Of a DNA stretch of 64,000 nucleotides, positions 3,141 to 35,728 are shown piece after piece; positions within the stretch are counted from its first letter, which is position 1; each line of letters starts with the position of its first letter. The notes under the pieces were generated by a model. That model ran no database searches. It was not told where the DNA came from and worked only from the letters and a program-made list of their open reading frames with translations. The translations under genes and the position numbers were made by a program. The stretch is from an uncultured Pirellulaceae bacterium (lineage in GTDB: Bacteria; Planctomycetota; Planctomycetia; Pirellulales; Pirellulaceae): assembly GCA_964433035.1 (NCBI GenBank), contig CAYSQZ010000003.1, positions 579-64,578 on the forward strand. Reading direction: 5' to 3'.

Positions 3141-3461
3141 CAGAACGATTCGCTTACGTTCTAATCGCCAGGGATTCTAGCCACTGATTTTCACAGATTG
3201 ACACGAATGTTGCGCGGCCAATCCGTGGCTTTTTAAATTCCGACAGATCCGTCCGGTTTGAAGCAGTCTGTATCCAGTTAATACAGTTTCAAAATATTCA
3301 GAGTTGGCTTCCCATGAAACCGGACTTACCGTTTGGTTGCACTAGCTACAGTTAAACAACGCAACGAACCGGTTGCCGCTCACATTTAACAAACAGTGCC
3401 TTGTGGTCCTTCAGCGTGAGCATAGATATCACCGACTCGCAGTACTTACTGGTGCTGCGTT

Positions 3462-4505: not shown

Positions 4506-5048
4506 AAGTAGGCTTGAGCTGGATGGGAAGTAAATTTTCGGACGCATTTTCGGCCTCAAATAAAAGCCAGAGTCTCGGCGCCCAATTGTATCAATTGATC
4601 TTCGAAAACCAAAAAGAATCTCTTGATAGAAATTCATGCGGTTCACATTGTAAGTCTGTCTTCGGAGCAAATCCCCAGTTGCTACAAGGACTTAGAGAAA
4701 CGCTAAAGGGTGTTTTGGGCGTCCAACCTGTCAGTTAAAGTCTCGTTAAGGACGATTTTACTCGCGTTTCTGCAGGGTGTTTGCGGAGCGGGTGAAGAAA
4801 TTGGGATAATCCGATTCCTTTTCCCAGGCACTACAAAAATCAAACGTGAAGTTTAGGCTATTCCGAACATAGGGAAAGGACTACCTCAGCACTGATTTGA
4901 AGGCTCATTTGTAGCTGCGATTCGACATTTGAAATGCATTCTGCTGGCACTGTTGACGATAACAATTCTTACATCGGCAACGAAATTCTCGACACAAATT
5001 TTGAGTATCAGTCTCAAGTTGAAGTCGCTCAAGGATGAAGGAAATCAA

Positions 5049-5489
5049 ATGAGACAGTTCTCGGTTCTGATCGCTCTCGTGGTCGCGGCAATGATGGCTC
5101 CTGCTTTTTCGAATGCGCAAGAGCCGCTGGACTATCGAACGGCATACACAAAAGCTCAGGCAGGCGACAAACCTCTGCTGGTTTTGATCACTGCCACTTG
5201 GTGCCCCCCGTGTCAGCTGATGAAGCAGACGACGATTCCTCAGTTGATGGAGAAGAAATCCTTCAAGGGGTTTCACTACTCAACTGTGGATTTGGACAAA
5301 GAAGAATTGTTGGCCAGAGAGCTAATTGGTGAGCGAGGAGTACCCCAGCTAATCATGTTTGAAAAACAGGATGGCAAGTGGGTCAGGAGATATCTGCGTG
5401 GAGCTCAGTCAGTTGAAACAGTAGAAGCGTTTGTCGCTCAGTCCGGCTTGACGAGGACTGCTTCGGTAGATTCCCAGTCCGGCAAATAG
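5049..5489 (+). CDS. Secreted thioredoxin-family protein
   Basis: Signal peptide MRQFSVLIALVVAAMMAPAFSNA and the WCPPC active site (ATWCPPCQLMK). The start was chosen at the internal ATG at 5049. Confidence 0.8.
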   Translation: MRQFSVLIALVVAAMMAPAFSNAQEPLDYRTAYTKAQAGDKPLLVLITATWCPPCQLMKQTTIPQLMEKKSFKGFHYSTVDLDKEELLARELIGERGVPQLIMFEKQDGKWVRRYLRGAQSVETVEAFVAQSGLTRTASVDSQSGK

Positions 5490-5513
5490 CTTTCGACGAA
5501 CTGTGAAAATTCG

Positions 5514-5548
5514 AACGCACTTACCTTGAAGGTGAGTGCGTTTTTTTT
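5514..5548 (+). terminator. Rho-independent terminator after the thioredoxin gene
   Basis: 10-bp stem CGCACTTACC / GGTGAGTGCG (one G-U), loop TTGAA, followed by T8 (5541-5548). Confidence 0.8.
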
Positions 5549-5646
5549 ATGCGAACTCCCATGCAAAGAGCTTAGGCTTTGGGGTAAATTGTGCATTGCG
5601 GGGCAATTTTTCTTAAACCATGACGTTCCGATAGGCAGAAAATTCT

Positions 5647-6327
5647 TTGAAGATTTCGGTTGTCATTCCAGTTATCAACGAATTCAATCAAATTCGACAA
5701 TCGATCGCTCTCGCGTGGCAAGCTGGTGCTGATGAAGTAGTAGTGGTTGACGGTGGCAGCACCGATCGGACTCGAGAGCTGGCAATCGAAATGAATTGCG
5801 TTTTCGAAGAAAGCATTTCCGGTCGGGCTGTTCAAATGAACCGTGGGGCCGCCGTCGCTGTTGGCGATGTCTTGTTGTTTTTGCATGCGGACAATTCACT
5901 GGCTCCGGGTGCATGTGACCAGATTCGCGAATTGTTTCGGACGACTGAGCACAAATTTGGCGGCTTTCGTCAGGAAATCCAAAGCCAATCTAATGCGTTT
6001 CGATGGATCGAACTAGGAAACGAAACTCGGCTGGTCCGCCAGGGTTTGATTTACGGCGATCAGGCGATGTTTATTAATCGGGATTTGTTCGAGCAATTGG
6101 GGGGCTTTCCTGAGATCGAGCTGATGGAAGATTTTAAATTCTCCATATCGCTCAGAAAATTCGGAAAGCCGGCGTTGCTTGACGGTCCGACGCTGGTTAG
6201 CGCACGACGTTGGGAGCGCAACGGCTGGATTCGACAGACGATTCTCAATTGGAGTTTGTCGTTTGCCTTTCGAATGGGGGCTTCGCCAGGCTGGATTGCC
6301 CGGCAGTATCGCCGCCATGACAAGTAA
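5647..6327 (+). CDS. Family 2 glycosyltransferase
   Basis: N-terminus KISVVIPVINE, DGGSTD and LFLHAD motifs, and about 226 aa, as in small GT2 enzymes. TTG start. Confidence 0.8.
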   Translation: MKISVVIPVINEFNQIRQSIALAWQAGADEVVVVDGGSTDRTRELAIEMNCVFEESISGRAVQMNRGAAVAVGDVLLFLHADNSLAPGACDQIRELFRTTEHKFGGFRQEIQSQSNAFRWIELGNETRLVRQGLIYGDQAMFINRDLFEQLGGFPEIELMEDFKFSISLRKFGKPALLDGPTLVSARRWERNGWIRQTILNWSLSFAFRMGASPGWIARQYRRHDK

Positions 6328-24842: not shown

Positions 24843-27167
24843 TTAAAGAACTACCAACCGCCAACACCGATGGATTCGCTTGTTTCGAAAATCTTCGGGT
24901 ACGGTTTGTTTGCTGATTTCGCGGCACTCGAACTTTGGTAGTGCGGCCGGATCAAATTTAAAGCGTCGAAAGTTGGTCGAGAAATAGACCACGCCGCCGG
25001 TTCGCATGATTTGATGGACAAGGTCCAGAAGTTCAACATGGCACGATTGAATTTCCCAATCCTGATTCGTCTTTTTACTGTTGGAAAACGTGGGTGGATC
25101 GACGACTGCCAGATCGTACATCCGCATCGGGTTGTCAGCAGCCGATTTTAGAAACTCCAGAATGTCCGACTGAATAAAATTATGTTTGGAGTCACTCAAT
25201 CCGTTGACGTCCATATTCTGCTGCGCCCAATCCAAGTAGTTTTTGGAAAGGTCAACGGTTGTCGTTGAGCTGGCGTGGGCTTTGGCGGCGTACACTGAGA
25301 ACGAGCCGGTGTAAGCGAACAAGTTAAGGAAGTCTTTGTCTTCGGCTTCGTTGAACACCATCTGCCGAGTCTTGCGATGGTCGAGAAAAAGTCCGGTGTC
25401 GACGTAGTCGGTCAAGTTGATCAAAAATTTCAAGCCGCCTTCATTGACGGTGGCAATCTTTCCAGCCCGCGAAACCTTTTCATACTGCCGATTGTTTTGG
25501 TCTTTCTTGCGCCGCTTCAAATAAACGTTGGTCTCTGGAATACCGAGCGTCTGGGCAGCAGTCTCGCACATCAGATCAAGCCATTGGGCATGGCGGGCGA
25601 TGTCTCGCTCGTGAGGCCGCTCATATTCAGTGATGTGCAGGTAGTCTTCGTAACGATCGACAACCAAAGGGATCTCCGGGATGTCACGTTCGTATAGTCG
25701 GAAACAGGTAATGTTCCGCTTGGTCGGCCAGCGACGAAGATGGCGGGCCAATTTAGTCAAACGATTTTTAAACAGCCCCGCTTGCTCACGGTCTTTGTCG
25801 GTCAATCCACCAAACAACGCGGTCGGTTGCGATTCCTCGGCGGAAGTTGAATCAGGAGCAGAGTCAGTATCGTCCGTCGTCTTCGGTGGTGTTGCCGCAG
25901 CGTTTTCTTCTCTTTCTTCATCTACCGCGATACCGCTGAGGTCGGGTTGAGCGTCCTCGATGGGTTTCCAGTCCGATTGGGTTTTGGCAGTAGTGGCCGA
26001 AGATTCCAAAGCGGCGACATCAGAAGTCTCGCCTCCGCGATTTGGTCGTGGTGGCCGAGGCCCAAGGAATTGATAGTAAGTGCACTCCAATCGCCCGTTG
26101 AAAAGTTTCCGTCGCCGCGTCGCCTGTTTTTGAATCAGCCCTTCAAATTTGGGCATATTGGTGATCAGAAACAGAGACCAGGTTGGTAGACGCTGCATGA
26201 TAGCCGGGATGGATTGGTAGAGTCCGATCAACCGTTGTTGCTGGTCAAGTCGTTCTCCGTAGGGCGGATTGGTAACGATGCAGCCATACTTTCGATCGCT
26301 CCGCAATTCGGCAAACGGCTTCTTTTGAAAGTCAATGTATTTGGTCACACCTGCTTGGTCCGCATGGTAGCGGGCTTTGTCGAGTACGTCGGCGTCGCGG
26401 TCCGAGGCAATGATCTCCATCTCAATATCGGTTCGCTTCAGATCATTGGCTTCCTCGGAGGCCGCATTCCAGAGCGATTTGTCAATCGTGAGCCATTGGG
26501 ACGAAGCAAAGTCTCGGGAGATTCCTGGAGCAATATTGCACCCAGCAAGCGCCGCTTCGATGGCGATTGTTCCCGAGCCGCAAAAAGGGTCCACCAGCAG
26601 GCGACCGGGACGCCAAACGCTAAGGTTGACCAGAGCGGCACCAAGCGTTTCCTTGATTGGAGCTTCGGCAACCAATCGTCGGTAGCCGCGTTTGTGAAGA
26701 CTTGGACCTGTGGTGTCGAGTGTTAACGTCGCGACGTCGTTGAGCAGCGCAACTTCGACTTTGTAGGTCGCGCCCGACTCGGGGAGCTCAGCGACTCCGT
26801 GGTGCTTTTGCAGGCTTTCGACTAAAGCTTTTTTCACCGTCCGCTGGACCGCTGGAACACTGGTGAGCTCCGAACGTCGTGATTTTCCCACAACCGGAAA
26901 CGCCGCGTCTGCTGGAATGTACCGGCTCCAGTCGAAGTCTTTGACTGTGTCGAAGAGCGCATCGAAGTCCGGACTTTCAAATTGCTGGATCTGAATTAGA
27001 ACTCGATCGGCGGTTCTAAGCCAGATGTTTGCTCGGCAGACTGCCGTCCAATCGCCTTCGAAATCAATCCGGCCAGGCTGCGAGACTTTCGGTTGATAGC
27101 CAAGTGCGATCAGTTCGCGTTTTACGAGGGCTTCAAGTCCAAACGCACACGCAGCAGTTAGTATCAA
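24843..27167 (-). CDS. rlmKL: Bifunctional 23S rRNA methyltransferase RlmKL (THUMP + two SAM-MTase domains)
   Basis: N-terminal GLEALVKREL/THUMP region, the NPPYGERL motif, and a second C-terminal MTase domain. The inter-domain linker is acidic and low-complexity. Confidence 0.8.
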   Translation of the reverse strand: MILTAACAFGLEALVKRELIALGYQPKVSQPGRIDFEGDWTAVCRANIWLRTADRVLIQIQQFESPDFDALFDTVKDFDWSRYIPADAAFPVVGKSRRSELTSVPAVQRTVKKALVESLQKHHGVAELPESGATYKVEVALLNDVATLTLDTTGPSLHKRGYRRLVAEAPIKETLGAALVNLSVWRPGRLLVDPFCGSGTIAIEAALAGCNIAPGISRDFASSQWLTIDKSLWNAASEEANDLKRTDIEMEIIASDRDADVLDKARYHADQAGVTKYIDFQKKPFAELRSDRKYGCIVTNPPYGERLDQQQRLIGLYQSIPAIMQRLPTWSLFLITNMPKFEGLIQKQATRRRKLFNGRLECTYYQFLGPRPPRPNRGGETSDVAALESSATTAKTQSDWKPIEDAQPDLSGIAVDEEREENAAATPPKTTDDTDSAPDSTSAEESQPTALFGGLTDKDREQAGLFKNRLTKLARHLRRWPTKRNITCFRLYERDIPEIPLVVDRYEDYLHITEYERPHERDIARHAQWLDLMCETAAQTLGIPETNVYLKRRKKDQNNRQYEKVSRAGKIATVNEGGLKFLINLTDYVDTGLFLDHRKTRQMVFNEAEDKDFLNLFAYTGSFSVYAAKAHASSTTTVDLSKNYLDWAQQNMDVNGLSDSKHNFIQSDILEFLKSAADNPMRMYDLAVVDPPTFSNSKKTNQDWEIQSCHVELLDLVHQIMRTGGVVYFSTNFRRFKFDPAALPKFECREISKQTVPEDFRNKRIHRCWRLVVL

Positions 27168-27382: not shown

Positions 27383-28552
27383 TCATTTTTGATTGGTTTC
27401 GGATTTTTCTTTGGAGGATTTTGGCTTCGCCTTCTTTTTGGTTTTTGATTCTTTCACTTTTATCGGCAGCTCGGCATTCATGATAGGAGTGTCCCAGCCA
27501 ACCATGTCGAGCGGCTTAACGCCTTCGTAGTAACCCGAATTCATTTGAAATGTCGATGGATTGTAAGGACCAACCATCGCGATGTCGTTGTCGGCTTTAA
27601 TCTCTGCTTCCATGCCCGCTGCCCAGAAGCAAGCGTTGATGAGCATCCGACGAAAGCCATCGTCGCGAATATCTTCCGACGCTCCTGAGGTCGTATTGAA
27701 TACTCGGCCAGTGGCACCGTCCTTACCTGAGTAGGTTCGAACCCAGGAATTTGGACAAGGCTTTTTGTCAGTTACCGGTTCAGAACCTTTTTTCATTGAT
27801 ACCAACGGTTGAGTCATCGCCAAGACAGTACTGCCGGGCATCGGATCGGTCCAATAGCCGCCGCACTCGGCCCACGGGCTTTCAACACCCGTCATGATCG
27901 GATGACTTTTTTGCGACTCAACGATATCCAGCCTCGTACTCATCTTGTGGTTGGTACCATAATGCGAGACCCATGTTTCCCCTAGAACCTGCCGACCGAA
28001 TCCGCCTTTAAAATCAGCGTCAGGAAATCGAAAGTCATATTTTGCGAACTTTGAATCCTTGGGGATTCTAAATGCGTGCGTCGAAGTACGAAGTCCAACA
28101 ACCGGTCCGGCCCGATCAAGGTAGTCGACGATCGGTTGCATTTGGTCGTCAGGAAAGTTCTGAAATCTCAGAAAAACAACAGCTAGGTCGGCATCCTTAA
28201 GCACCTCGGTGCCCGGCATGTAACTGGACCCAGGCAAAATCTCTCCAGTTTCCTTGTCGATTGAGAACAGCACGGTGCATTTGAATCCGTGATGCTTGGC
28301 CAGAATGCGAGCCAACATCGGCAGTGTTTGCTCACCACGATATTCATGGTCCCCTGCCAGAAAGACAATGTGTTTTCCTTTGCCGACGCCCTGAGTGCCC
28401 TCATAGACTAAATGCTCGCTCGAAACGGTTTGCGAATTCGCTGTTGGAGTTGCCGCGAAAAGAAAGCCAATGGCCAAAATCGCAGTGAACACGAAACAGT
28501 GGAGATACTTCATTTGATTTGTCCGGTAGAAAAAAGTGGCTGCAGAGATCAA
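27383..28552 (-). CDS. Secreted ThuA-like (class I glutamine-amidotransferase-fold) protein
   Basis: Signal peptide, HIVFLAGDHEYRGEQTLPMLARIL and LRFQNF...TSTHAF blocks resembling ThuA-domain proteins, and a Lys-rich tail. Confidence 0.5.
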   Translation of the reverse strand: MISAATFFYRTNQMKYLHCFVFTAILAIGFLFAATPTANSQTVSSEHLVYEGTQGVGKGKHIVFLAGDHEYRGEQTLPMLARILAKHHGFKCTVLFSIDKETGEILPGSSYMPGTEVLKDADLAVVFLRFQNFPDDQMQPIVDYLDRAGPVVGLRTSTHAFRIPKDSKFAKYDFRFPDADFKGGFGRQVLGETWVSHYGTNHKMSTRLDIVESQKSHPIMTGVESPWAECGGYWTDPMPGSTVLAMTQPLVSMKKGSEPVTDKKPCPNSWVRTYSGKDGATGRVFNTTSGASEDIRDDGFRRMLINACFWAAGMEAEIKADNDIAMVGPYNPSTFQMNSGYYEGVKPLDMVGWDTPIMNAELPIKVKESKTKKKAKPKSSKEKSETNQK

Positions 28553-28918
28553 CGCTGAAACGTTGGTGAAAGCGAAAGCAGGTCGCCATGTCTCTCAGTA
28601 AGATGATTGAACCCCAAATTTAATTAGATTTCAAATGCGAAACCAAAGAAAAATGGATCGACGCTGGAAGAAGGTGACAAATTGAGCGGAAGATAGTTAA
28701 AAAGTCAAAGTTGTCATTGATCCAAATCTTTCAAATTAGAGGGATCCAGAACCTAAGCCCTAATTTTTAAGAAGGTTGAGGTTTGGGGCTTGAGCGAGGC
28801 AGTCATTCCTCTTTCCAGTCGTAGGGTTGGCCGCGGTTCCGCAGAAGAATGTTCGTCGAATTTTTGTGAACCTGCCGCCTCAGTACCTGTCCTTATCCCC
28901 AACACGGGGCAAGCTTGC

Positions 28919-29036
28919 TCGCCCTTGCAAGTCGCGGGACGTTACGGCGCAGTTCAGATCGGCGCTATACCCAGCGTCACCAACTTTAAAGGTGATTGTT
29001 TACTGTCCGAGTTTTTCCCGCGACTTGCAGGGGCGA
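28919..29036 (+). repeat. 21-bp inverted repeat enclosing 76 nt (candidate structured RNA or DNA palindrome)
   Basis: 28919-28939 pairs with 29016-29036 with 20 Watson-Crick pairs and 1 G-U, verified base by base. The interior contains a TCACC/GGTGA hairpin. It lies in a roughly 700-bp divergent intergenic region. Confidence 0.9.
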
Positions 29037-29108
29037 AGCCAAGTTGCGTAAGCGGCCAACGGCTTGCCTTGGTCAAACCCGAAAACGAAACAAGACAGGA
29101 CTCGATGT

Positions 29109-29182
29109 CGTTCAGTAGCTCAGTTGGTTAGAGCATCAGATTGAAACTCTGACGGTCGCGGATTCGAATTCCGCCAAATTCA
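29109..29182 (+). tRNA. tRNA-Phe(GAA)-like element with canonical D, anticodon, variable and T arms but a non-pairing acceptor stem
   Basis: Canonical parts:
- D stem GCTC/GAGC with loop AGTTGGTTA
- anticodon stem TCAGA/TCTGA with loop TTGAAAC
- variable loop CGGTC
- T stem GCGGA/TCCGC with loop TTCGAAT
The would-be acceptor strands CGTTCAG / CAAATTC give only 2 Watson-Crick pairs and 1 G-U out of 7. Confidence 0.55.
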
Positions 29183-29247
29183 CGATCTCATTTTTCCTGT
29201 CACTTTTTCGTAGTCTTTCGCTCCGCCAAAGATGCGCTCGTGCAAAC

Positions 29248-30756
29248 ATGTCTTTCGAAGTTCAAAGGGAGCTACCAGTGACACAAACCATTTCAAACAA
29301 CCGACTGCTCGAATACCTGGCAACCGCTTGCACCAGCACGGGGCAGGCAACGTTCTACAATTCGCGAGAAGAACAGTCTGGGGCACTGGCTGAACTTCAC
29401 GCTGGCGTATTAAATGTTGACCGTCGCGCGTACACGCTCTCGGCCGCTTTGCCGATCAACGACCGTAACCGACAGGAGATCGTTTACAACTTGATCGCTC
29501 AAGGCGTCGCGACCGAGGATCGAGAGCTGGAAAACCAGGCGATCGAATATGTTATTCGCGAGCTGCCTTTTAGTCGTTGGTTAAAACTTTTGGTACGTTT
29601 GAGTCGTAACAAAGTCAACAACGCTCGCTTGCGGCGCATTTGCCGGGAGTTCTGGAACAAGTACGGTGACGCGTACCACGCGATCAAGTACCGAGCGAAG
29701 TTTCGAACCGTTTTGCGCCATTGCCACATCGGCGAAGGCGAAGATCCGCATCGGGCTGAGGTTCATCGCTGGATCTTTGGGCGCTTGCGAAATCCTGCAG
29801 ACGTTCAGCACAACCCATTGCTTCGTTCGCGATTGACTGCGGCAGACGACCTGGGAGCTTGCTTTGACCTTCCACTGGAAATCGGTCGCGATATTGCAGT
29901 GGCTTGCCACGGAATGAAGCCGAAAGAGTTCACCGAGCAGTTTGCTGGAAAAAGCGAAACCGAATCGGGCGACGCAATCGTTGCTCGTGGTCGCGCGACC
30001 CGTAAGCAATCTTTGATTGCAAATCGTCAAGCCGGTACTGACGTTGACTTTAAGCGGTTCGAATTGATCGAATTGCTTCAGCATGGTTACCGGGTGCGAG
30101 ACGACCAGGAAAGCCCGGAAGCGTTCGCCAAGATCCGTGACGAGTTGTACGCCGCAATCGATTTGCAGGCAAAGCGATTGGCTCGCAACTTGCAACTGCC
30201 TGACAATGTACACGCAATCGTTGACAACAGCGGTAGTGCACGTGGCAGCGACGAGCGAGCTTATCACGCGTTAGCTGTGATCGAAGCGACGTTCCGTGTC
30301 ATCGGAGCTGCGTCCGAAAAGTTGGGTACGTCGTTGACGTGCCACTTTGTTGGTGACGCAGGCGAAGGCAACACGTTGCTCAGTCCAGCCGGAGGTACCG
30401 ACTTGCGGCGACCGCTGGCCCGTGCCTTGGCGGCTCGGCCTGACATGGTAGTCATTCTGTCGGACGGCTACGAGAACGTATCGGCTGGTAGCGTTGCCCA
30501 AATTCTGGCGACCCGCGCGGTGCGGGAAAGCGGGATTGGCGTCGTTCATTTGAACCCGGTCGCTGCGGCTGAAGCTGGCGGTACGCGCCGATTGGCCGAG
30601 AACCTGCCAACCTACGGCTTGGCTGATCCAAAGCAACTGTCGATTTCGTTGTTGCTGGGTGAAGCCACGACCGACACACGTCGATTGTTTGCTTTGTTTG
30701 ATCGAATTGAAATTGCTTTAAAAGGAGACCACGATGAAATTGCACGAATTGTTTAG
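29248..30756 (+). CDS. Divergent TROVE-domain + vWA-domain protein (Ro60/Rsr-like)
   Basis: Three N-terminal blocks resemble Ro60/Rsr sequences:
- RLLEYLATACTSTGQATFYNSREEQ, compared with Ro60/Rsr RFLxLGxEGGTYY
- ARLRRICREFWNKYGDAY
- YHAIKYRAKFRTVLRHCH, compared with AVKYxQRxGWSHRDLLRLxHP
The C-terminal vWA region has the MIDAS motif IVDNSGSA (DxSxS) and VVILSDGYEN. Confidence 0.6.
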   Translation: MSFEVQRELPVTQTISNNRLLEYLATACTSTGQATFYNSREEQSGALAELHAGVLNVDRRAYTLSAALPINDRNRQEIVYNLIAQGVATEDRELENQAIEYVIRELPFSRWLKLLVRLSRNKVNNARLRRICREFWNKYGDAYHAIKYRAKFRTVLRHCHIGEGEDPHRAEVHRWIFGRLRNPADVQHNPLLRSRLTAADDLGACFDLPLEIGRDIAVACHGMKPKEFTEQFAGKSETESGDAIVARGRATRKQSLIANRQAGTDVDFKRFELIELLQHGYRVRDDQESPEAFAKIRDELYAAIDLQAKRLARNLQLPDNVHAIVDNSGSARGSDERAYHALAVIEATFRVIGAASEKLGTSLTCHFVGDAGEGNTLLSPAGGTDLRRPLARALAARPDMVVILSDGYENVSAGSVAQILATRAVRESGIGVVHLNPVAAAEAGGTRRLAENLPTYGLADPKQLSISLLLGEATTDTRRLFALFDRIEIALKGDHDEIARIV

Positions 30757-31705
30757 CGAGCTGATGATTGGTCAGCCGCAAACGGTCGGTAACATGACCG
30801 TGATCCCGTTGAGCAATCGTTCCAATGCAGAGCCTCAGTCGCGTGCCAATGTTGGTTCAAGTCGAGATCTGTTTCTGGAGCGTGACGAGAGCTACAACTC
30901 GCTGGTGTTGGGTACGCATGCCGACTATGTCACGATCGTACCGCAAGGTATGGCCTTGATTACTCGGCAGCGAGCCCAGGACCGTGCGATTCCCAGCACG
31001 CACCTGGTACATACGACTCCAAAGAAAGTCGGCGCGTTTTGTATTCAATCGAGCCAATGTGGTCTGATGAGTAAAGATCGCAGCTCAGAACACAAACTGC
31101 GGATGCTGCCGTTGGCAGTTCGTTACGAAGCGTATTTGCGTCGCAATGAGTCGGCTGAGTCGTTCAGCTCGCTGTGGCAAAAGCTGGGACAATGGAATCA
31201 CCGATCTGGCGTTAACGGTGACTTCCTGGTCAGCTTTTTCCAGCAGTACGCTCGGAACCTCAGCCAATTTGTGGCCCAGTTCGAGCTTACGCCTCAGCAG
31301 CGCGGTGCGATCGTTCTGATCAACGGTCGACTGGCAGGTGTCGAAGTGGCGCCTAACAGCGAATACTTTGCTGGCCTTTTTCAACCGCTAATTCGTGACT
31401 GTTACGGTGCCGAAGCGATGTTGGCGCGTGGCGAAGCGACGCCTAAGGCGAGTGAGCTATTGTCAGACGTGAATTCGCTTGATGATCTGGTCGCCGCTGT
31501 CGACGAGTTGGCTGAGACCGAGAACCGGTTTGCAGCCGATGTTGCGCAGGAAGTTCAGACGTTGGCGATGCAGTCCAGCGATGACCACGCGTTGGCGGGT
31601 TTGAAAGTCGTCAACATGGACGGGGCTTCGCTCGCTGGTCAGGGTGTTTATTCGGATCAGGCTCGGGGCTTGGTCTACGCCTCGTTGATGGCCCGTCCAG
31701 CGTAG
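30734..31705 (+). CDS. Unknown protein translationally coupled to the TROVE/vWA gene (possibly DUF6569/ARPP-1-like)
   Basis: Its ATG overlaps the upstream CDS by 23 nt and is preceded by AAAGGAGA. The N-terminal GNMTVIPL, RAQDRAIP and AFCIQSSQCG blocks resemble my memory of that DUF. This is unverified. Confidence 0.55.
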   Translation: MKLHELFSELMIGQPQTVGNMTVIPLSNRSNAEPQSRANVGSSRDLFLERDESYNSLVLGTHADYVTIVPQGMALITRQRAQDRAIPSTHLVHTTPKKVGAFCIQSSQCGLMSKDRSSEHKLRMLPLAVRYEAYLRRNESAESFSSLWQKLGQWNHRSGVNGDFLVSFFQQYARNLSQFVAQFELTPQQRGAIVLINGRLAGVEVAPNSEYFAGLFQPLIRDCYGAEAMLARGEATPKASELLSDVNSLDDLVAAVDELAETENRFAADVAQEVQTLAMQSSDDHALAGLKVVNMDGASLAGQGVYSDQARGLVYASLMARPA

Positions 31706-31756
31706 CCAGTCATATGGCGTCTTTAGATATCACGTCTTTCAAATTGACCGTTAGTT

Positions 31757-31796
31757 AACACCACGTCTACTGTTCTACAGCGGGCGTGGTGTTTTC
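31757..31796 (+). terminator. Possible intrinsic terminator after the two-gene module
   Basis: 9-bp stem AACACCACG / CGTGGTGTT followed by TTTT. The loop is long (19 nt), so confidence is modest. Confidence 0.4.
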
Positions 31797-31810
31797 CGTT
31801 GAGGGCGTGG

Positions 31811-33862
31811 TCACTTCCGTAATGGGGGAGGTAACTTCTGTAGTGGGCGAGCTAATAAGTCTAACTCATAACCGGTCGACAGGGACTTGCCACCTCGTCC
31901 ACTGCCCAATCCCGTCTTGGTACCCAGGTCTTGAAACTGCTTATCGGATCCCAAGCCCAACCCAGAGCCTGGATTCGAACGTTCGTTGATTCGATCGATT
32001 GCGTTGGTGGCTTGGAGACGGACTCGAGCTTTTTTCGAATTCGCGACTACAGCCTGAAGTGCTTTGATGCTTTTTTGAGTTCCAATCGTACCCAGTAGTT
32101 TGCACGCGGTCAGTTGCGTGTCAACTGAAGTGTGGGATGCGAACGAGACAACATGTGATTCAATTTCAGGCCCAAATTTTGAAAGTGTCAACGCGACTCG
32201 CTGCCGTTGCTCTGTGTTCAAACGTTCGGCCAACAAAGGAATCAGCTTAGGGTTTGAGAGGCCTTCAATGATCTTGTGAGTAGAATCGCGTACATAAAAT
32301 GAAGCGTCGTCAATGCCGTTGAGAATCCACTCGAGGCTGTGCTCTGAATCTTTTTTGGCAAGCGTTTCAATCGCCAGAATTCTTGTTGAAGATTCTTGGG
32401 CGAGAGCAAATTTTTGCACGAGTTCGACAATCGCCGGGTAACGTGTTGAAGGCCAGCTAGACTGAATTTCCGCGATCGCAGTACGAACTTGAGTAGGGTC
32501 GCGAGCGTCCATGGCTTGTTCTGCAAGTCGCCGAAATCGAGGGGGCAGTTCGGCAAGCGAATCTTGGGAAATCAGTTTGTCTGGTTGGACGGAGGTCTCA
32601 ATTAAAGTCGCGCGCGGCGCAAATGACGGTGGCCGGCCAAACACTTGTTCTTCGTTCGGGTTTTCTCCAAAGCTAACGGGGGCATTGGTTGTTGCAGTTT
32701 TCAAGATTTTACCAGGCGCAGAATCAGTTGCCGGAGTGATCAAAGCATTTTTGGAAAGTGACTCGTTGTCGGGATTTACGCCCGGTGATTCCGGGTTCTC
32801 GCCCGCTTGTTCCGCAGAAGGTGTACTTCCAGATTTCATCTCTTTGTTGTTTACAATGTTAGGAATGAACTCATTCTCGGGCGGAAAAAAATCGGACTTG
32901 TCAGTTTGCTCAGGCAATCGTTTTGCGTTTTCATTTGCATCGAATTCAAATGCATTTGGTTTTGGTGGGGCTTCGTACCTGAAACTGCCGGAGCGTAATT
33001 TATTGTTTACCGAAACTGAGCTGGTCTCGGGCATTTTAAAGTCGTTGGGGAACACTGGCGATTCGTAGGAAGTTCGCTTGGCAAGAGATCTTTCGGCTTT
33101 CGATCCAACTTCGCCAAAGGACTTTCGCACTGTCTTGGCTTCGGGTTTTGGAGGCTGCTCTGGAGACTTCCAAATGACTGGGAGTTTTTTGGGGGTCGGG
33201 TGGGCGAGCGAGAATTGGTTTTGCGATTTTAGGGTAGGCTTGAGTCGTGCAACTTCGCCCGACAGACTCGTTGCATCGTCTTTGGATGGAACGACAGGGG
33301 TAACCGAGTCCGGCATCTGGGGCTCAGCCAATGGTGGTTCTTGATCTAAGCCGTTTGAATTCGCAGCATAGCGAAGTGGCGTTTGAAACGGTGGAGCTTT
33401 TTCTTGCCCCAGAGAAACCGAAGGTGGGGAAACTTTTGCTTTGGCAAGCTGCTGACGGTTCTCTATGCTTGGTGAACCTTTAAAGTGATCGCGCTTGGTT
33501 CTCGAGCTGAAATTTGAACCAGTTGATTGCTTTGGCAAGTTTTGTTGTGGCGGCTTTAGACTACCACCATTAAGTAGAGAGATTTCGTGCTTGACGAAAG
33601 CAAGATCATTTTTGGAAAGCCGGGAAAATGGTACTTCGATGACAACTTGATTCGTTTTTTTCAGGGTAACCGAAGTTGGGTTGATTTTCATCAGCTCGGC
33701 TTCGGTCGAGAAGCTACCTGAGTTGTCCGACCAAAATCGCGTCGCAGTCTGTCCCGCGGACGCTGAGTTCAACAGCAACGTTAGCGAGATCGAGAAAACA
33801 GTCACCGACAGCAACTGTGGCCGCAGGTTCGTCGCGAACATTTTACTGAGATCCATCTCCAA
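31811..33862 (-). CDS. Secreted SHD1-domain protein with long low-complexity region and C-terminal HEAT-like repeats
   Basis: RFWSDNSGSFSTEAELMKINPTSVTLKKTNQVVIEVPFSRLSKNDLAFV matches the SLA1-homology-domain-1 pattern. The C-terminal helical repeats are HEAT-like (...LAIETLAKK..., VRLQATNAIDRI). Confidence 0.7.
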   Translation of the reverse strand: MEMDLSKMFATNLRPQLLSVTVFSISLTLLLNSASAGQTATRFWSDNSGSFSTEAELMKINPTSVTLKKTNQVVIEVPFSRLSKNDLAFVKHEISLLNGGSLKPPQQNLPKQSTGSNFSSRTKRDHFKGSPSIENRQQLAKAKVSPPSVSLGQEKAPPFQTPLRYAANSNGLDQEPPLAEPQMPDSVTPVVPSKDDATSLSGEVARLKPTLKSQNQFSLAHPTPKKLPVIWKSPEQPPKPEAKTVRKSFGEVGSKAERSLAKRTSYESPVFPNDFKMPETSSVSVNNKLRSGSFRYEAPPKPNAFEFDANENAKRLPEQTDKSDFFPPENEFIPNIVNNKEMKSGSTPSAEQAGENPESPGVNPDNESLSKNALITPATDSAPGKILKTATTNAPVSFGENPNEEQVFGRPPSFAPRATLIETSVQPDKLISQDSLAELPPRFRRLAEQAMDARDPTQVRTAIAEIQSSWPSTRYPAIVELVQKFALAQESSTRILAIETLAKKDSEHSLEWILNGIDDASFYVRDSTHKIIEGLSNPKLIPLLAERLNTEQRQRVALTLSKFGPEIESHVVSFASHTSVDTQLTACKLLGTIGTQKSIKALQAVVANSKKARVRLQATNAIDRINERSNPGSGLGLGSDKQFQDLGTKTGLGSGRGGKSLSTGYELDLLARPLQKLPPPLRK

Positions 33863-34183: not shown

Positions 34184-35728
34184 GTGATGAGCAACTCTCG
34201 AACAATCAAGATTTTCGACACGACCTTGCGAGACGGGGAACAGTCACCCGGCGCAAGTATGAATCTTCAGGAAAAAATGGAGATTGCTCAGGCGCTGATA
34301 GAGCTAGGGGTCAATGTGATCGAAGCCGGTTTTCCGATCGCTTCACCGGGAGATTTTGAGTCAGTTCGAGAGATCGCAAACAATTTTCGCGGTGCCGAAA
34401 TTTGCGGCTTGGCCAGGTCTAACGAACGCGATATTGATCGGGCGTGGGAAGCATTGAAAGGTTCGGCAGATCCGAGAATCCACGTTTTTCTGGCCACTAG
34501 CGCGATTCACCGCGAGTTCAAACTAAAAATGAGTCTCGATGAGGTCATTTCGCGTGCAGTTGCTGGAGTGGTTCATGCGAAAAGTTACTGTGACAACATT
34601 GAGTTTTCTCCAGAGGATGCTGCTCGGACCGAGCCAGATTTTTTGTGCCGTGTGGTCGAAGCAGTGATCGATGCTGGTGCAACGACGGTCAATATTCCCG
34701 ATACGGTAGGTTACGCAACGCCTGAGCAAATGGGAATTTGCATCAAGAACCTCGTTGATCGTGTCCCCAATATTGATAAGGCCATCATCAGTGTTCACTG
34801 TCACAATGATCTCGGTATGGCGGTGGCCAATAGTTTGGCCGCTGTTCAAAACGGTGCCGGGCAAATCGAATGCACGATCAATGGAATTGGCGAACGGGCT
34901 GGAAATTGTTCGCTCGAAGAAGTCGTAATGGCAGTTCGGACGCGAGCGGATTTTTATGACTTTGACACGAGCATCAATTCCAAGCGACTAGTTCCGACCA
35001 GCAGACTTGTTTCTACAATCACAGGTCTGGAAGTTCAGCGGAACAAAGCGGTCGTGGGTAGGAACGCTTTTGCTCACGAAGCAGGAATTCATCAAGATGG
35101 AATGTTGAAGGAGAGGACGACTTACGAAATCATGCGTCCTGAGGACGTTGGGTTTGCCAGCACGGATCTGGTGCTTGGAAAACATAGTGGACGAGCCGCT
35201 TTGGCAGATCGAGCGAAGCAACTTGGTTTTACTTTGACCGGCGAGCAGCTTCAGAGTGTTTTTGAACAGTTCAAAGAATTGGCCGATCGCAAGAAAGAGA
35301 TTTTCGATGGTGATATCGCTGCTCTGGTGGAGCACGAAATTCTCGGCACGATCGAGGAGGAGTGGTCGCTGGTCTCGTTCGATGTAGAGTTGAAATATCA
35401 ACAGCCGCCGCGCATTACACTGTGCCTGAGCAAAGGCGATGAGCAGCAGACAGTAGAAATTGCCGAAGGCTCCGGTCCGGTCGATGCGGCTTTTCTCGCA
35501 GTCAAAAAGATTACTGGCGTTGAAATGAACTGCAAAGAGTTTCACGTTCGCAGTACGTCGTTGGGCTACGATGCTCCCGGCGAGATCACTTTGGAGACCG
35601 AGCACAACGGACAGATTTTTCGCGGTCGCGCGGTCTCGACCGACTGCGTGGAGGCTTCGATCAAAGCAGTACTCAACGCGACCAATCGAATTCTGGTCGC
35701 CGATCGAGTTGCCAGTAACGCTTCTTGA
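34184..35728 (+). CDS. leuA: 2-isopropylmalate synthase
   Basis: IKIFDTTLRDGEQSPGASM, HCHNDLGMAVANSLAAV, and a C-terminal LeuA allosteric domain. Confidence 0.95.
   Translation: MMSNSRTIKIFDTTLRDGEQSPGASMNLQEKMEIAQALIELGVNVIEAGFPIASPGDFESVREIANNFRGAEICGLARSNERDIDRAWEALKGSADPRIHVFLATSAIHREFKLKMSLDEVISRAVAGVVHAKSYCDNIEFSPEDAARTEPDFLCRVVEAVIDAGATTVNIPDTVGYATPEQMGICIKNLVDRVPNIDKAIISVHCHNDLGMAVANSLAAVQNGAGQIECTINGIGERAGNCSLEEVVMAVRTRADFYDFDTSINSKRLVPTSRLVSTITGLEVQRNKAVVGRNAFAHEAGIHQDGMLKERTTYEIMRPEDVGFASTDLVLGKHSGRAALADRAKQLGFTLTGEQLQSVFEQFKELADRKKEIFDGDIAALVEHEILGTIEEEWSLVSFDVELKYQQPPRITLCLSKGDEQQTVEIAEGSGPVDAAFLAVKKITGVEMNCKEFHVRSTSLGYDAPGEITLETEHNGQIFRGRAVSTDCVEASIKAVLNATNRILVADRVASNAS

What the first reader, a model, noticed from the sequence alone, without database searches (positions are those of the whole stretch)
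28919..31796. Candidate Y-RNA-like ribonucleoprotein module: structured RNA(s), divergent TROVE/vWA (Ro60-like) protein and a coupled unknown partner
All components lie on the plus strand of a roughly 700-bp gene-free leader and its operon. In order they are:
- a 21-bp long-range helix at 28919-29036;
- a tRNA-like element at 29109-29182 that cannot form an acceptor stem;
- a 502-aa protein whose N-terminus carries TROVE-like blocks and whose C-terminus is a vWA domain with an intact DxSxS MIDAS motif;
- a 323-aa protein whose start overlaps the TROVE gene by 23 nt, behind a strong AAGGAG;
- a terminator-like hairpin.

From my memory of the Ro60/Rsr literature, bacterial Ro60 orthologues (Rsr) bind Y RNAs encoded next to rsr, and one class (YrlA) carries a tRNA-mimicking domain. 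This locus differs from that paradigm in three ways. The protein is short and strongly diverged. The RNA keeps a complete anticodon arm but loses the acceptor. The partner is not the RtcB/RtcA set that I recall accompanying rsr in enterobacteria. It could therefore be an undescribed variant of an RNA surveillance or conflict module.
Basis: partly seen in the sequence, partly recalled or inferred. Interest (0 to 1): 0.85.

Follow-up and report, generated by a model that had tools for sequence, protein, structure and literature searches.

The report
Ro60-like protein with scaffolded tRNA-mimic RNAs
A very diverged relative of the Ro60 RNA-quality-control protein, always paired with a little-known enzyme-like protein (ARPP), sits behind two structured RNAs built on one conserved scaffold, one of them a tRNA look-alike with no acceptor stem; the same three-part module recurs in large phages, so it looks like an undescribed cousin of the Ro60/Y-RNA particle.

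Summary

- **Gene A (29248-30756):** no Pfam TROVE hit. Its confident AlphaFold model matches Ro60 alone in the PDB at E<=0.001. A family profile aligns to Ro60 at 91.5% probability, and the MIDAS motif is intact.
- **Gene B (30734-31705):** not an unknown protein. It is an ARPP-1 domain protein (E=2e-26) with the family's conserved Cys and Gln. It follows gene A in nearly every locus examined. I found no description of this pairing.
- **The two RNAs:** the 21-bp helix and the tRNA-like element are two copies of one scaffold: closing helix P1, junction RRR-AC(U/G), bulged helix P2, YNCAG, then a variable insert.
- **Scaffold statistics:** modules occur 1-6 per locus. They are about 8-fold enriched upstream of gene A on its strand, and P1 covaries.
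- **Inserts:** they range from full tRNAs with CCA, through tRNA mimics with short or no acceptor stems, to unrelated hairpins.
- **The window's tRNA mimic:** nearly invariant among close relatives except for its anticodon loop.
- **Differences from canonical Y RNA/YrlA:** different motif, opposite topology, and no Rfam match.

Verdict: a new variant of the Ro60/Y-RNA kind, mostly phage-borne. Function is inferred.

The parts
28864..28873 (+). Conserved leader box TTGTGAACCT about 40 nt upstream of module A. It may be a promoter or the 5' end of the RNA; this was not tested.
   Evidence: Conserved among window, L059 and L063 while the neighbouring leader sequence diverges. The sigma-70 consensus scan found no plus-strand promoter.
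28912..29046 (+). RNA module A. Long closing helix P1 (perfect core 28919-28939 / 29016-29036), junction GGGA-CG, bulged helix P2 (CGG[C]GCAGU / ACUGU-CCG), UUCAG, and a non-tRNA insert of two hairpins.
   Evidence: Inverted repeat. Fold. Compensatory changes in L059 and L063. Detected as a strict scaffold module at 28932-29023.
29094..29201 (+). RNA module B. P1 is GACAGGA / UCCUGUC, the junction is CUC, P2 is GA.GUCGU / ACGAU.UC, followed by UCAG. The insert is an acceptor-less tRNA mimic with its core at 29115-29175 and anticodon loop UUGAAAC. A U-run lies at 29204-29208.
   Evidence: Rfam tRNA 51.9 bits, model positions 7-64. No ARAGORN call. P1 covariation across 25 modules. Against L059 the module differs at 2 of 101 positions outside the anticodon loop and at 4 of 7 within it.
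29248..30756 (+). Gene A: a diverged Ro60-like protein with an all-alpha TROVE-like N-terminal part and a vWA domain with a complete MIDAS motif. The likelier start is GTG 29278.
   Evidence: AlphaFold pLDDT 89.3. Foldseek: Ro60 entries 9nep and 2i91 are the only PDB hits at E<=0.001, TM 0.45-0.47. A phage TROVE protein is among the top BFVD hits. hhalign to Ro60: 91.5%, E=8.5e-7. Invariant D326, S328, S330, D406.
30734..31705 (+). Gene B: an ARPP-domain protein, translationally coupled to gene A (23-nt overlap, AAAGGAG).
   Evidence: Pfam ARPP-1 E=2e-26 and ARPP-2 E=7e-16. Invariant C103, Q108 and G110 in the motif A-x-C-I-Q-x-S-Q-G-G. Directly downstream of gene A in other loci.
31757..31796 (+). 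Terminator-like hairpin followed by UUUU, ending the two-gene operon.
   Evidence: Fold of 31700-31830, z = -3.3. The next gene is on the opposite strand.

Best explanation
The locus encodes a Ro60/Y-RNA-like ribonucleoprotein system of a previously uncatalogued lineage. It has three parts.

- Gene A is a remote homologue of Ro60: a helical-repeat ring plus a vWA/MIDAS domain.
- The two upstream RNAs are built on one conserved scaffold. The 5' and 3' ends pair into P1 and a bulged P2 around the motif RRR-AC(U/G).
- Gene B (ARPP) is a predicted Cys/Gln enzyme that travels with gene A and is translationally coupled to it.

By analogy with Y RNAs, the scaffold would be the docking site for the Ro60-like protein. 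Each scaffold presents a variable module. In the window one module is a pair of hairpins and the other is an L-shaped tRNA mimic attached through its acceptor end. ARPP would act on the RNA that the particle captures or presents, or on a ribose-linked adduct on it.

The module lives mostly in tRNA arrays of large phages, and its inserts range from real tRNAs to tRNA mimics. The likeliest arena is therefore surveillance, protection or repair of tRNAs during phage-host conflict. The Planctomycete copy would be a laterally acquired two-RNA version.

Shown: homology of gene A to Ro60; ARPP identity and linkage; the RNA scaffold, its covariation and its linkage to gene A.

Inferred: that the protein binds the scaffold, that the RNAs are stable, and the biochemical activity.
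For: Protein:
- The AlphaFold model is confident (pLDDT 89.3, pTM 0.86).
- The only PDB matches at E<=0.001 are two Ro60 structures, aligned over about 550 columns.
- A phage 'TROVE domain-containing protein' and several roughly 500-aa viral vWA proteins lead the viral library.
- An 82-sequence family profile against a Ro60 profile gives 91.5% probability, E=8.5e-7, over 335 columns. The alignment covers the KYKQRNGWSHKDLLRLSH block and the MIDAS motif.
- DxSxS...T...D is complete.

Linkage to ARPP:
- An ARPP homologue starts within 400 nt downstream of gene A in 31 of 40 fetched loci. Five of the other nine have no ORF of 60 aa or more there, mostly because the contig ends too soon.
- It is also adjacent in all six distinct contigs found by exact-protein look-up.
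- A 462-kb phage genome has a 345-aa ORF in the same position; I did not test it for ARPP.

RNA:
- Rfam tRNA hits, some of them partial (lacking the acceptor positions), lie upstream on the same strand in many loci whose proteins are 24-46% identical.
- Strict scaffold modules occur at 1.59 per kb in the 1.5 kb upstream of gene A. The rate is 0.19 per kb elsewhere on that strand and 0.17 per kb on the other strand.
- The outer four pairs of P1 are 87% paired, against 35-47% when the partner is slid.
- RNAalifold on a plain MAFFT alignment predicts P1, with 6-13 sequences changed on both sides at four of its five pairs.
- P1 is 95% paired. Over the whole four-helix structure the covariation score is 0.634, against 0.184 in shuffles (0 of 500 reach it).
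- P2 leader:trailer duplexes are more stable with their own partner than with swapped partners (p=2.6e-9).
- tRNAs that carry the scaffold motif cluster next to gene A (Fisher p=5.6e-4).
- In the window, both modules are the conserved islands of an otherwise diverged leader.

Literature:
- Y RNAs are modular, with a terminal stem that holds the Ro60 site plus an effector module that is tRNA-like in YrlA (PMC4201824; bioRxiv 10.1101/312249).
Against: - No experiment or expression data are available. Binding of the protein to these RNAs is an analogy.
- Pfam TROVE does not match. Sequence searches of the PDB find no Ro60.
- The fold match is moderate (TM 0.45-0.47, rmsd about 10 A).
- The canonical Ro60-binding motifs (GGUCCGA, GNCGAAN0-1G) are absent. 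No Rfam family other than tRNA matches, even at E<=10.
- Some inserts are complete tRNAs with CCA. These could simply be processed into working tRNAs.
- The ends of the modules in alignment A6 were chosen using P1 complementarity. This inflates the counts; the swap, slide and enrichment controls are the less biased tests.
- ARPP's chemistry is unknown.
Confidence: 0.6

Rival explanations
1. Cis-acting leader. The two structured RNAs are not free Y-like RNAs. They are part of the operon's 5' untranslated region, acting as an attenuator or autoregulatory operator that is bound by the gene A protein or senses a tRNA-related signal, and so controls read-through into genes A and B.
For: - Both modules lie in the 695-nt leader on the coding strand.
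- Module B's closing helix is followed by ACUUUUU, 46-76 nt before the start codon. L063 and L064 have the same U-run.
- No independent plus-strand promoter or terminator was detected between the modules and gene A.
Against: - Phage loci carry up to six tandem modules. In LR756500 the modules lie about 1.4-3 kb upstream, with plus-strand ORFs of 160 and 268 aa in between.
- Modules also occur downstream of the gene pair in L021, and a plain tRNA sits between genes A and B in L066.
- Several inserts are complete tRNAs with CCA, which implies processing into separate RNAs.
Confidence: 0.15
2. tRNA expression or processing cassettes. The scaffold (a leader:trailer duplex) is a processing stalk, like those that flank rRNAs, from which phage tRNAs or tRNA fragments are released. 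The Ro60-like/ARPP pair acts in trans on the released or damaged tRNAs, in repair or modification removal, without forming a stable particle with the scaffold.
For: - The G of the conserved YNCA|G is position +1 of the embedded tRNA wherever the tRNA is complete, as expected for an RNase P site. Several of these tRNAs carry an encoded ACCA end.
- The modules sit in tRNA arrays.
- M. smegmatis YrlA is itself cleaved by RNase P.
Against: - Many modules hold inserts that cannot become tRNAs: a T arm only, unrelated hairpins, or the window's acceptor-less mimic.
- Ordinary array tRNAs lack the scaffold: 44 of 69 plus-strand tRNAs.
- The junction sequence is conserved across loci whose proteins are 24-46% identical, whereas a plain processing duplex would need only base pairing.
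Confidence: 0.17
3. Relic. The tRNA-like element is a decaying tRNA pseudogene or an integration-site remnant carried along with a horizontally acquired vWA gene pair. It has no function, and the vWA protein is a chaperone-type vWA unrelated to RNA.
For: - The gene pair sits between unrelated neighbours in the window and in L059, as expected after lateral transfer.
- Pfam sees only weak vWA matches.
- vWA proteins are described as peptide-binding co-chaperones in ARG systems (PMC9503650).
Against: - Module B differs from L059 at 2 of 101 positions outside the anticodon loop, while the proteins are only 76% identical.
- The flanking helices covary.
- The element recurs upstream of distant homologues.
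- Integration remnants normally keep the 3' part of a tRNA, not positions 7-64 (this rests on my own knowledge of tRNA-gene integration sites).
- The N-terminal 310 residues match the Ro60 ring, not a chaperone module.
Confidence: 0.03

Closest known systems
Bacterial Ro60 (Rsr) with YrlA/YrlB Y RNAs (Salmonella rsr-yrlBA-rtcBA; Deinococcus Rsr/Yrn1/PNPase 'RYPER'; mycobacteriophage Ro60 plus YrlA)
   Same: - A Ro60-fold protein (helical ring plus vWA/MIDAS) is encoded on the same strand as, and next to, small structured RNAs.
- The RNAs are modular: a terminal stem formed by the 5' and 3' ends carries a conserved bulged helix, and the rest is a variable module.
- Usually there are two or more RNAs per locus, one of them a tRNA mimic with intact D/T elbow nucleotides.
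- The system occurs in phages as well as bacteria and is linked to tRNA damage and repair biology.
   Different: - The protein is too diverged for the Pfam TROVE model.
- The partner is ARPP, not RtcB/RtcA or PNPase.
- The scaffold motif is RRR-AC(U/G) with YNCAG, not GNCGAAN0-1G or GGUCCGA.
- The tRNA mimic is joined to the scaffold through its acceptor end and keeps a full anticodon arm. YrlA is joined through the anticodon stem, has a closed acceptor stem-loop and lacks an anticodon loop.
- The inserts grade into complete tRNAs.
- Up to six modules occur in tandem.
- No Rfam family other than tRNA matched.
ARPP-containing conflict systems (Iyer, Burroughs, Anantharaman, Aravind 2022, PMC9503650)
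   Same: Gene B is a clear ARPP-1/ARPP-2 member and has the family's conserved Cys and Gln. It occurs in a tight two-gene neighbourhood in mobile or phage contexts.
   Different: The described partners are ARG, rhodanese-phosphatase and other phosphatases, HIRAN, WYL and an aminosugar deacetylase. The paper mentions no TROVE/Ro60 protein or tRNA-like RNA. The pairing with a Ro60-like protein and scaffolded RNAs is a further context.
Phage tRNA arrays
   Same: Most loci place the module inside same-strand tRNA clusters of large phages.
   Different: Only 25 of 69 plus-strand tRNAs carry the scaffold motif, and these cluster next to gene A. Many modules contain no decodable tRNA at all.

Membership tests
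Ro60 / TROVE protein (Pfam PF05731 + PF25045) | Match to the Pfam TROVE model | tested here: not met
   The window protein has no TROVE hit at E<=1, only VWA_CoxE at E=1e-3, below the curated cut-off. Six distant homologues also have none. Genuine Ro60 proteins carry PF05731 + PF25045.
Ro60 / TROVE protein (Pfam PF05731 + PF25045) | Ro60 fold: helical-repeat ring followed by a vWA domain | tested here: met
   Model pLDDT 89.3: helices over residues 11-312, then an alpha/beta domain. Foldseek against the PDB ranks Ro60 entries 9nep_A and 2i91_A first and second (E 3e-4 and 4e-4, probability 1.0, about 550 aligned columns, TM 0.45-0.47); the next hit is at 4e-2. BFVD returns a phage TROVE protein among the top five. 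The TM-score is moderate. I did not check ring closure directly.
Ro60 / TROVE protein (Pfam PF05731 + PF25045) | Sequence-profile homology to Ro60 | tested here: met
   hhalign of A3 (82 sequences) against A4 (16 vertebrate Ro60): probability 91.5%, E=8.5e-7, 335 columns spanning the second half of TROVE and the vWA domain. The Ro60 profile was vertebrate-only.
Ro60 / TROVE protein (Pfam PF05731 + PF25045) | MIDAS motif DxSxS...T...D in the vWA domain | tested here: met
   D326, S328, S330 and D406 are invariant, and G382-T383 lies in GGTD. Motif definition from PMC11277228.
Ro60 / TROVE protein (Pfam PF05731 + PF25045) | Binds Y RNA on its outer surface and RNA 3' ends in its central cavity | not testable with these tools
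   Needs RIP/CLIP or a solved structure.
Y RNA / YrlA | Encoded within a few kb of the Ro60 gene, on the same strand | tested here: met
   The window modules lie 47-336 nt upstream of gene A on the plus strand. Enrichment is 1.59 against 0.19 per kb across loci.
Y RNA / YrlA | Terminal stem formed by the 5' and 3' ends, containing a conserved (bulged) helix | tested here: met
   P1 and the bulged P2 are present in both window modules. P1 covaries. P2 pairing is partner-specific.
Y RNA / YrlA | Canonical Ro60-binding sequence (GGUCCGA in metazoa; GNCGAAN0-1G in bacteria) | tested here: not met
   The conserved elements are RRR-AC(U/G) and YNCAG. Neither window module contains GNCGAA. Motif definition from PMC4201824.
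Y RNA / YrlA | YrlA topology: permuted tRNA mimic with a closed acceptor stem-loop and no anticodon loop | tested here: not met
   Module B has the normal order D arm, anticodon arm, T arm, with a 7-nt anticodon loop and no acceptor stem. YrlA definition.
Y RNA / YrlA | Match to an Rfam Y-RNA covariance model | tested here: not met
   cmscan of 28500-29400 against all 4227 families at E<=10 returned tRNA and three chance-level hits. I did not verify which bacterial Y-RNA models Rfam 15 holds.
Functional tRNA (tRNA-Phe) | 7-bp acceptor stem with a discriminator/CCA end | tested here: not met
   Two Watson-Crick pairs and one G-U of seven possible. Rfam aligns positions 7-64 only. ARAGORN makes no call.
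Functional tRNA (tRNA-Phe) | Anticodon conserved among orthologous copies | tested here: not met
   The loop is UUGAAAC in the window, UCCUUAC in L059 (C at position 33) and CUCAUAA in L063, while the rest is nearly invariant.
Functional tRNA (tRNA-Phe) | D, anticodon and T arms with elbow nucleotides | tested here: met
   51.9 bits to RF00005. The three arms are 97-99% paired across 25 modules.
ARPP (PF20208 / PF22549) | Pfam match above the curated cut-off, and the conserved Cys/Gln | tested here: met
   93.5 bits against a cut-off of 27. C103, Q108 and G110 are invariant in 20 partners. Description in PMC9503650.
ARPP (PF20208 / PF22549) | One of the described neighbourhoods (ARG, phosphatase, HIRAN, WYL, deacetylase) | tested here: not met
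   The only co-directional neighbour is gene A. The paper does not mention TROVE or Ro60.
rsr-rtcBA RNA-repair operon | RtcB ligase / RtcA cyclase in the same operon | tested here: not met
   The operon has two genes, ends in a hairpin, and is flanked by opposite-strand genes. Related loci show no RtcB/RtcA Pfam families next to the pair.
Known anti-phage defence systems (PADLOC) | Match to a PADLOC model | tested here: not met
   No hit for either protein at E<=1.

The most novel reading that the evidence does not exclude
This would be a previously unrecognised phage-borne counter-defence particle. A Ro60-like ring docks on arrays of scaffolded tRNAs and tRNA mimics. These serve as decoys, sensors or protected spares against host enzymes that cleave or ADP-ribosylate tRNA anticodon loops. 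The coupled ARPP enzyme removes the ribose-linked lesion or processes the damaged end. On this reading, the rapidly changing anticodon loop on an otherwise frozen mimic is the footprint of that arms race, and the Planctomycete copy is a domesticated version.
Probability: 0.2. Interest if true: 0.9.

Novelty: new variant of a known kind. Interest (0 to 1): 0.8.

Why it matters
- **Reach of the Ro60/Y-RNA partnership.** It is one of the few RNP designs shared by animals, bacteria and phages, and its bacterial function is only partly understood. This lineage of about 659 clusters at 50% identity is invisible to the Pfam TROVE model, so surveys that start from TROVE annotation have missed it.
- **A second route to tRNA mimicry.** Here the tRNA module is attached through its acceptor end and keeps an exposed, fast-changing anticodon loop. 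Natural intermediates run from true tRNAs to pure mimics.
- **A first RNA-linked context for ARPP.** ARPP is a predicted enzyme of unknown chemistry that has so far been tied only to ADP-ribose systems.
- **A testable handle on phage tRNA arrays.** It offers an experimental question about why large phages carry tRNA arrays and how they defend them.
- **A compact system for experiments.** The window's version has two RNAs and two genes.

Tried and rejected
- **Pfam, PADLOC and PDB sequence searches on gene A**. They gave nothing beyond weak vWA matches. Homology appeared only with structure comparison and profile-profile comparison.
- **Integration-site or tRNA-pseudogene idea.** Rejected because of the conservation pattern and recurrence.
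- **'All tRNAs in these phage arrays have such flanks.'** Rejected: 44 of 69 plus-strand tRNAs lack the motif.
- **First rigid, ungapped search for P1 and P2**, and a loosened motif (162 hits). These were too noisy: 13 minus-strand hits and many false positives. I replaced them with the strict criteria and controls.
- **Sequence-only nhmmer with module A**. It finds module A only in the closest relatives. Its kinship with the other modules shows in the scaffold, not in the insert.
- **MAFFT alignment A6.** It does not keep P2 in register because of bulges and variable acceptor length. P2 was therefore tested by duplex energies rather than by column counts.
- **Papers not held in the library.** Burroughs & Aravind 2016 (NAR) and Sim et al. 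2020 (Annu Rev Microbiol) were unavailable, so I could not check whether the 2016 survey lists this lineage.
- **A memory corrected.** I recalled that the Ro60 H187S mutant loses binding of misfolded RNA. The review says it loses Y-RNA binding. The alignment of the family's conserved His to H187 is within two residues and is not decisive.
- **Covariance models.** I did not build one; no search of public collections with an RNA model was possible.

Full report
**What is in the window**

Between a minus-strand gene that ends at 28552 and the ORF that starts at 29248 lies a 695-nt stretch. It contains no ORF beyond two mechanical ones of 113 and 74 aa, which overlap the RNA modules.

It holds a 21-nt inverted repeat, 28919-28939 / 29016-29036, that is 95% complementary. 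The leader as a whole folds far better than shuffled copies (z = -5.0).

At 29115-29175 Rfam's tRNA model scores 51.9 bits but aligns only positions 7-64. This is the only Rfam hit in the whole 64 kb, and ARAGORN calls no tRNA. Read directly, the strands that would form the acceptor stem give two Watson-Crick pairs and one G-U out of seven. The D, anticodon (GAA) and T arms and the elbow nucleotides are all intact.

Two overlapping plus-strand ORFs follow: 502 aa at 29248-30756 and 323 aa at 30734-31705. Then comes a 16-bp hairpin with a U-run at 31757-31796.

- Homologues start near residue 11-17, so the in-frame GTG at 29278 behind AAGGGAG is the likelier start.
- The second protein is not unknown (see below).

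**Gene A is a remote Ro60 homologue**

Standard searches see almost nothing:
- Pfam gives only a sub-threshold VWA_CoxE match and no TROVE.
- PADLOC gives nothing.
- PDB sequence and profile searches give nothing relevant.

The protein belongs to a family with 48 clusters in the word-indexed search, none carrying a Pfam domain. An exhaustive profile search finds 659 representatives at 50% identity.

An AlphaFold model built on 38 homologues is confident (pLDDT 89.3, pTM 0.86). It is all-helical to about residue 312 and then forms an alpha/beta domain.

Structure and profile comparisons both point to Ro60:
- Foldseek against the PDB returns two Ro60 structures as the only matches at E<=0.001. 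They align over the whole length (TM 0.45-0.47), and the next hit is a hundred-fold weaker.
- In the viral library the top hits are roughly 500-aa phage and giant-virus proteins, among them a 'TROVE domain-containing protein'.
- An 82-sequence family profile aligns to a Ro60 profile with 91.5% probability (E=8.5e-7) over 335 columns. The alignment runs from the KYKQRNGWSHKDLLRLSH block of the TROVE ring through the vWA domain.

The MIDAS motif DxSxS...T...D is complete and conserved (definition).

I therefore file gene A as a diverged Ro60-like protein. It fails the Pfam membership test but passes the fold and profile tests.

**Gene B is an ARPP protein and a fixed partner**

It matches Pfam ARPP-1 at E=2e-26. 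It keeps the invariant Cys and Gln (A-x-C-I-Q-x-S-Q-G-G) that the describers of the family took as a sign of enzymatic activity.

An ARPP homologue starts within 400 nt downstream of gene A in 31 of 40 fetched loci. Five of the other nine have no ORF of 60 aa or more there, mostly because the contig ends too soon. L013 has the homologue a little further on. It is also adjacent in all six distinct contigs recovered by exact-protein look-up.

The 2022 paper lists ARG, phosphatases, HIRAN, WYL and a deacetylase as ARPP's partners. It does not mention TROVE, Ro60 or tRNA-like RNAs. I found no other paper on ARPP.

**Where the module lives**

- Close relatives (43-76% identity) come from Pirellulales-type contigs. 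Their flanking genes differ from those in the window, so the module has moved.
- The larger, more distant part of the family (24-33% identity) sits on phage-like contigs inside same-strand tRNA arrays.
- These include two IMG/VR viral contigs and a 462-kb 'huge phage' genome, LR756500.1.

**The RNAs are two copies of one scaffold**

Aligning the window's leader with its two closest relatives shows two conserved islands in otherwise diverged sequence: the long helix, and the tRNA-like element with about 20 nt on each side.

Across roughly 25 loci the tRNA or tRNA-like core is preceded by a purine triplet plus AC(U/G), then 8-13 nt, then YNCAG. Many loci repeat this 5' signature several times in tandem, with different cores.

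Folding individual copies gives one recurring architecture:
- a closing helix P1, variable in sequence but ending in RRR/YYY;
- a short unpaired junction;
- a helix P2 of 8-10 bp with single-nucleotide bulges, formed between leader and trailer;
- YNCAG;
- the insert;
- the 3' strands of P2 and P1, separated by about 5-7 nt.

Both window elements fit:
- **Module A (28912-29046):** an extended P1, P2 of CGG[C]GCAGU / ACUGU-CCG, and a two-hairpin insert.
- **Module B (29094-29201):** P1 of GACAGGA / UCCUGUC, P2 of GA.GUCGU / ACGAU.UC, and the acceptor-less tRNA mimic as insert.

**Is the scaffold more than chance?**

- Strict motif-plus-P1 hits occur at 1.59 per kb in the 1.5 kb upstream of gene A on its strand. 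The rate is 0.19 per kb elsewhere on that strand and 0.17 per kb on the other strand.
- The four outer P1 pairs were not required to pair individually; the filter asked for the three innermost pairs and at least six of seven overall. They are 87% paired, against 35-47% when the partner is slid by 1-3 nt, and each position shows all six standard pair types.
- P1 strands pair better with their own downstream region than with those of other loci (p=1e-5).
- P2 leader:trailer duplexes are about 2 kcal/mol more stable with their own partner than with swapped partners (p=2.6e-9).
- On a plain MAFFT alignment of 25 tRNA-type modules, RNAalifold predicts P1 together with the D, anticodon and T arms, but no acceptor stem.
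- The pair count gives P1 95% paired, with changes on both sides at four of five pairs. The covariation score for the whole four-helix structure is 0.634, against 0.184 in shuffles and at most 0.13 when slid.
- Caveat: I set the 3' ends of those 25 sequences by looking for P1 complementarity, so lean towards P1. The enrichment, slide and swap tests are the less biased ones.
- Only 25 of 69 plus-strand tRNAs in these loci carry the motif, and those cluster next to gene A (p=5.6e-4). It is therefore not a general feature of phage array tRNAs.

**A graded series of inserts**

- Complete tRNAs with a 7-bp acceptor stem and an encoded ACCA end: L020, L028, L029, L065.
- tRNA-like cores with a 4-5-bp acceptor stem and no CCA: L039, L041, L051, L032, L036, L037.
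- Cores with no acceptor stem: the window, L059, L063, L064.
- An anticodon arm plus T arm, or a T arm alone: L020, L021, L035, L039.
- Unrelated hairpins: window module A, L019, L022, L028.

Where the tRNA is complete, the G of YNCA|G is tRNA position +1.

Anticodons differ from locus to locus. Within the window's own clade the mimic differs from L059 at 4 of 7 anticodon-loop positions but at only 2 of 101 elsewhere (p=9e-5). L059 has C at the normally invariant U33. This argues against a decoding role. It suggests that the loop is either unconstrained or under diversifying selection.

**How it most likely works**

Y RNAs are defined as modular RNAs. Their terminal stem, made from the 5' and 3' ends, carries the conserved Ro60-binding helix, and their other end binds an effector. 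In YrlA that end is a tRNA mimic. These RNAs are encoded beside the Ro60 gene on the same strand, often two per locus.

The present RNAs share each of those features in form. They accompany a Ro60 homologue across wide divergence. The only element common to all modules is the scaffold.

I therefore think the Ro60-like protein docks on the scaffold and the insert is what is presented or sensed. ARPP would be the catalytic partner.

The canonical Rsr operon responds to damaged tRNAs (PMC7790460 abstract). Jumbo phages are already known to carry TROVE proteins as part of RNA-repair sets. Surveillance, protection or repair of tRNAs in phage-host conflict is therefore the most plausible setting.

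All of this beyond homology, linkage and RNA structure is inference. I put it at about 0.6.

**Rivals**

- A cis-acting leader or attenuator is suggested by the position of the modules and by the U-run after module B. It fits poorly with arrays of up to six modules, with modules about 1.4-3 kb upstream or downstream of the gene pair, and with inserts that are complete tRNAs (0.15).
- A processing-cassette reading, in which the stalk releases tRNAs and the proteins act in trans, fits the complete-tRNA modules. It does not fit the many inserts that cannot become tRNAs, nor the conserved junction (0.17).
- A relic or pseudogene reading is contradicted by the conservation pattern (0.03).

**Comparison with what is known, and novelty**

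The closest known system is bacterial and phage Rsr with YrlA/YrlB. The differences are substantive:
- The protein lineage is not recognised by the TROVE model.
- The obligate partner is ARPP, not RtcB/RtcA or PNPase.
- The scaffold motif is different, and neither GNCGAAN0-1G nor GGUCCGA is present.
- The topology is opposite: the mimic is joined through its acceptor end and keeps an anticodon arm, whereas YrlA is joined through the anticodon stem and has a closed acceptor stem.
- The modules come in tandem arrays that grade into real tRNAs.
- No Rfam family beyond tRNA matches.

Searches of the held literature found no description of this combination. The 2016 survey of RNA-repair systems and the 2020 Ro60 review were not available, so I cannot exclude an earlier mention.

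I rate it a new variant of a known kind, with high interest.

Noticed in passing
L004 1415-1853 and 7578-7796 (same contig as L047): A GOLLD RNA (165 bits) and a group I intron flank the Ro60-like/ARPP pair inside a tRNA array, on a 204-kb contig binned as Bacteroidales that looks like a large phage.
   Followed up: no
L040 36-183, minus strand: Three CRISPR-DR4 repeats lie next to the array of scaffold modules on a phage-like contig.
   Followed up: no
L028 2598-2672 (same sequence in L058), L040 438-510, L051 700-774, L029 5029-5106, L002 3688-3763: ARAGORN reports tRNAs with 6-nt or 8-nt anticodon loops ('tc', 'ga', 'at', 'ctgg', 'ccaa'). Those in L028/L058, L040 and L051 lie inside scaffold modules directly upstream of gene A.
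   Followed up: partly
window 29264-29280: AAGGGAG followed by an in-frame GTG at 29278. Homologues align from here, so gene A is probably about 492 aa rather than 502 aa.
   Followed up: partly
window 28864-28873: The box TTGTGAACCT is conserved in the window, L059 and L063, about 40 nt upstream of module A. It may be a promoter or the 5' end of the transcript. The sigma-70 consensus scan did not find it.
   Followed up: no
L066 3988-4061; L021 6330-6913: The layout varies. In L066 a tRNA lies between gene A and the ARPP gene. In L021 three scaffold modules, each with a T-arm-like hairpin in its insert (two of them little more than that), lie downstream of the pair.
   Followed up: partly
L068 (LR756500.1 100410-108864, reverse strand): A 462-kb uncultured 'huge phage' genome has a gene A homologue (3417-4982) followed by a 345-aa ORF (4991-6028) that I did not test for ARPP. 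Scaffold modules lie at 399-531, 546-636 and 1848-1970. The record carries no annotation.
   Followed up: partly
window 24843-27167 (-), 27383-28552 (-), 31811-33862 (-), 34184-35728 (+): From a quick reading of the translations, the flanking ORFs look like ordinary chromosomal genes: a large RNA-methyltransferase-like protein, a secreted protein, a repeat protein and a 2-isopropylmalate-synthase-like protein. If so, the module is a two-gene island rather than part of a prophage. I did not check their identities with any tool.
   Followed up: no
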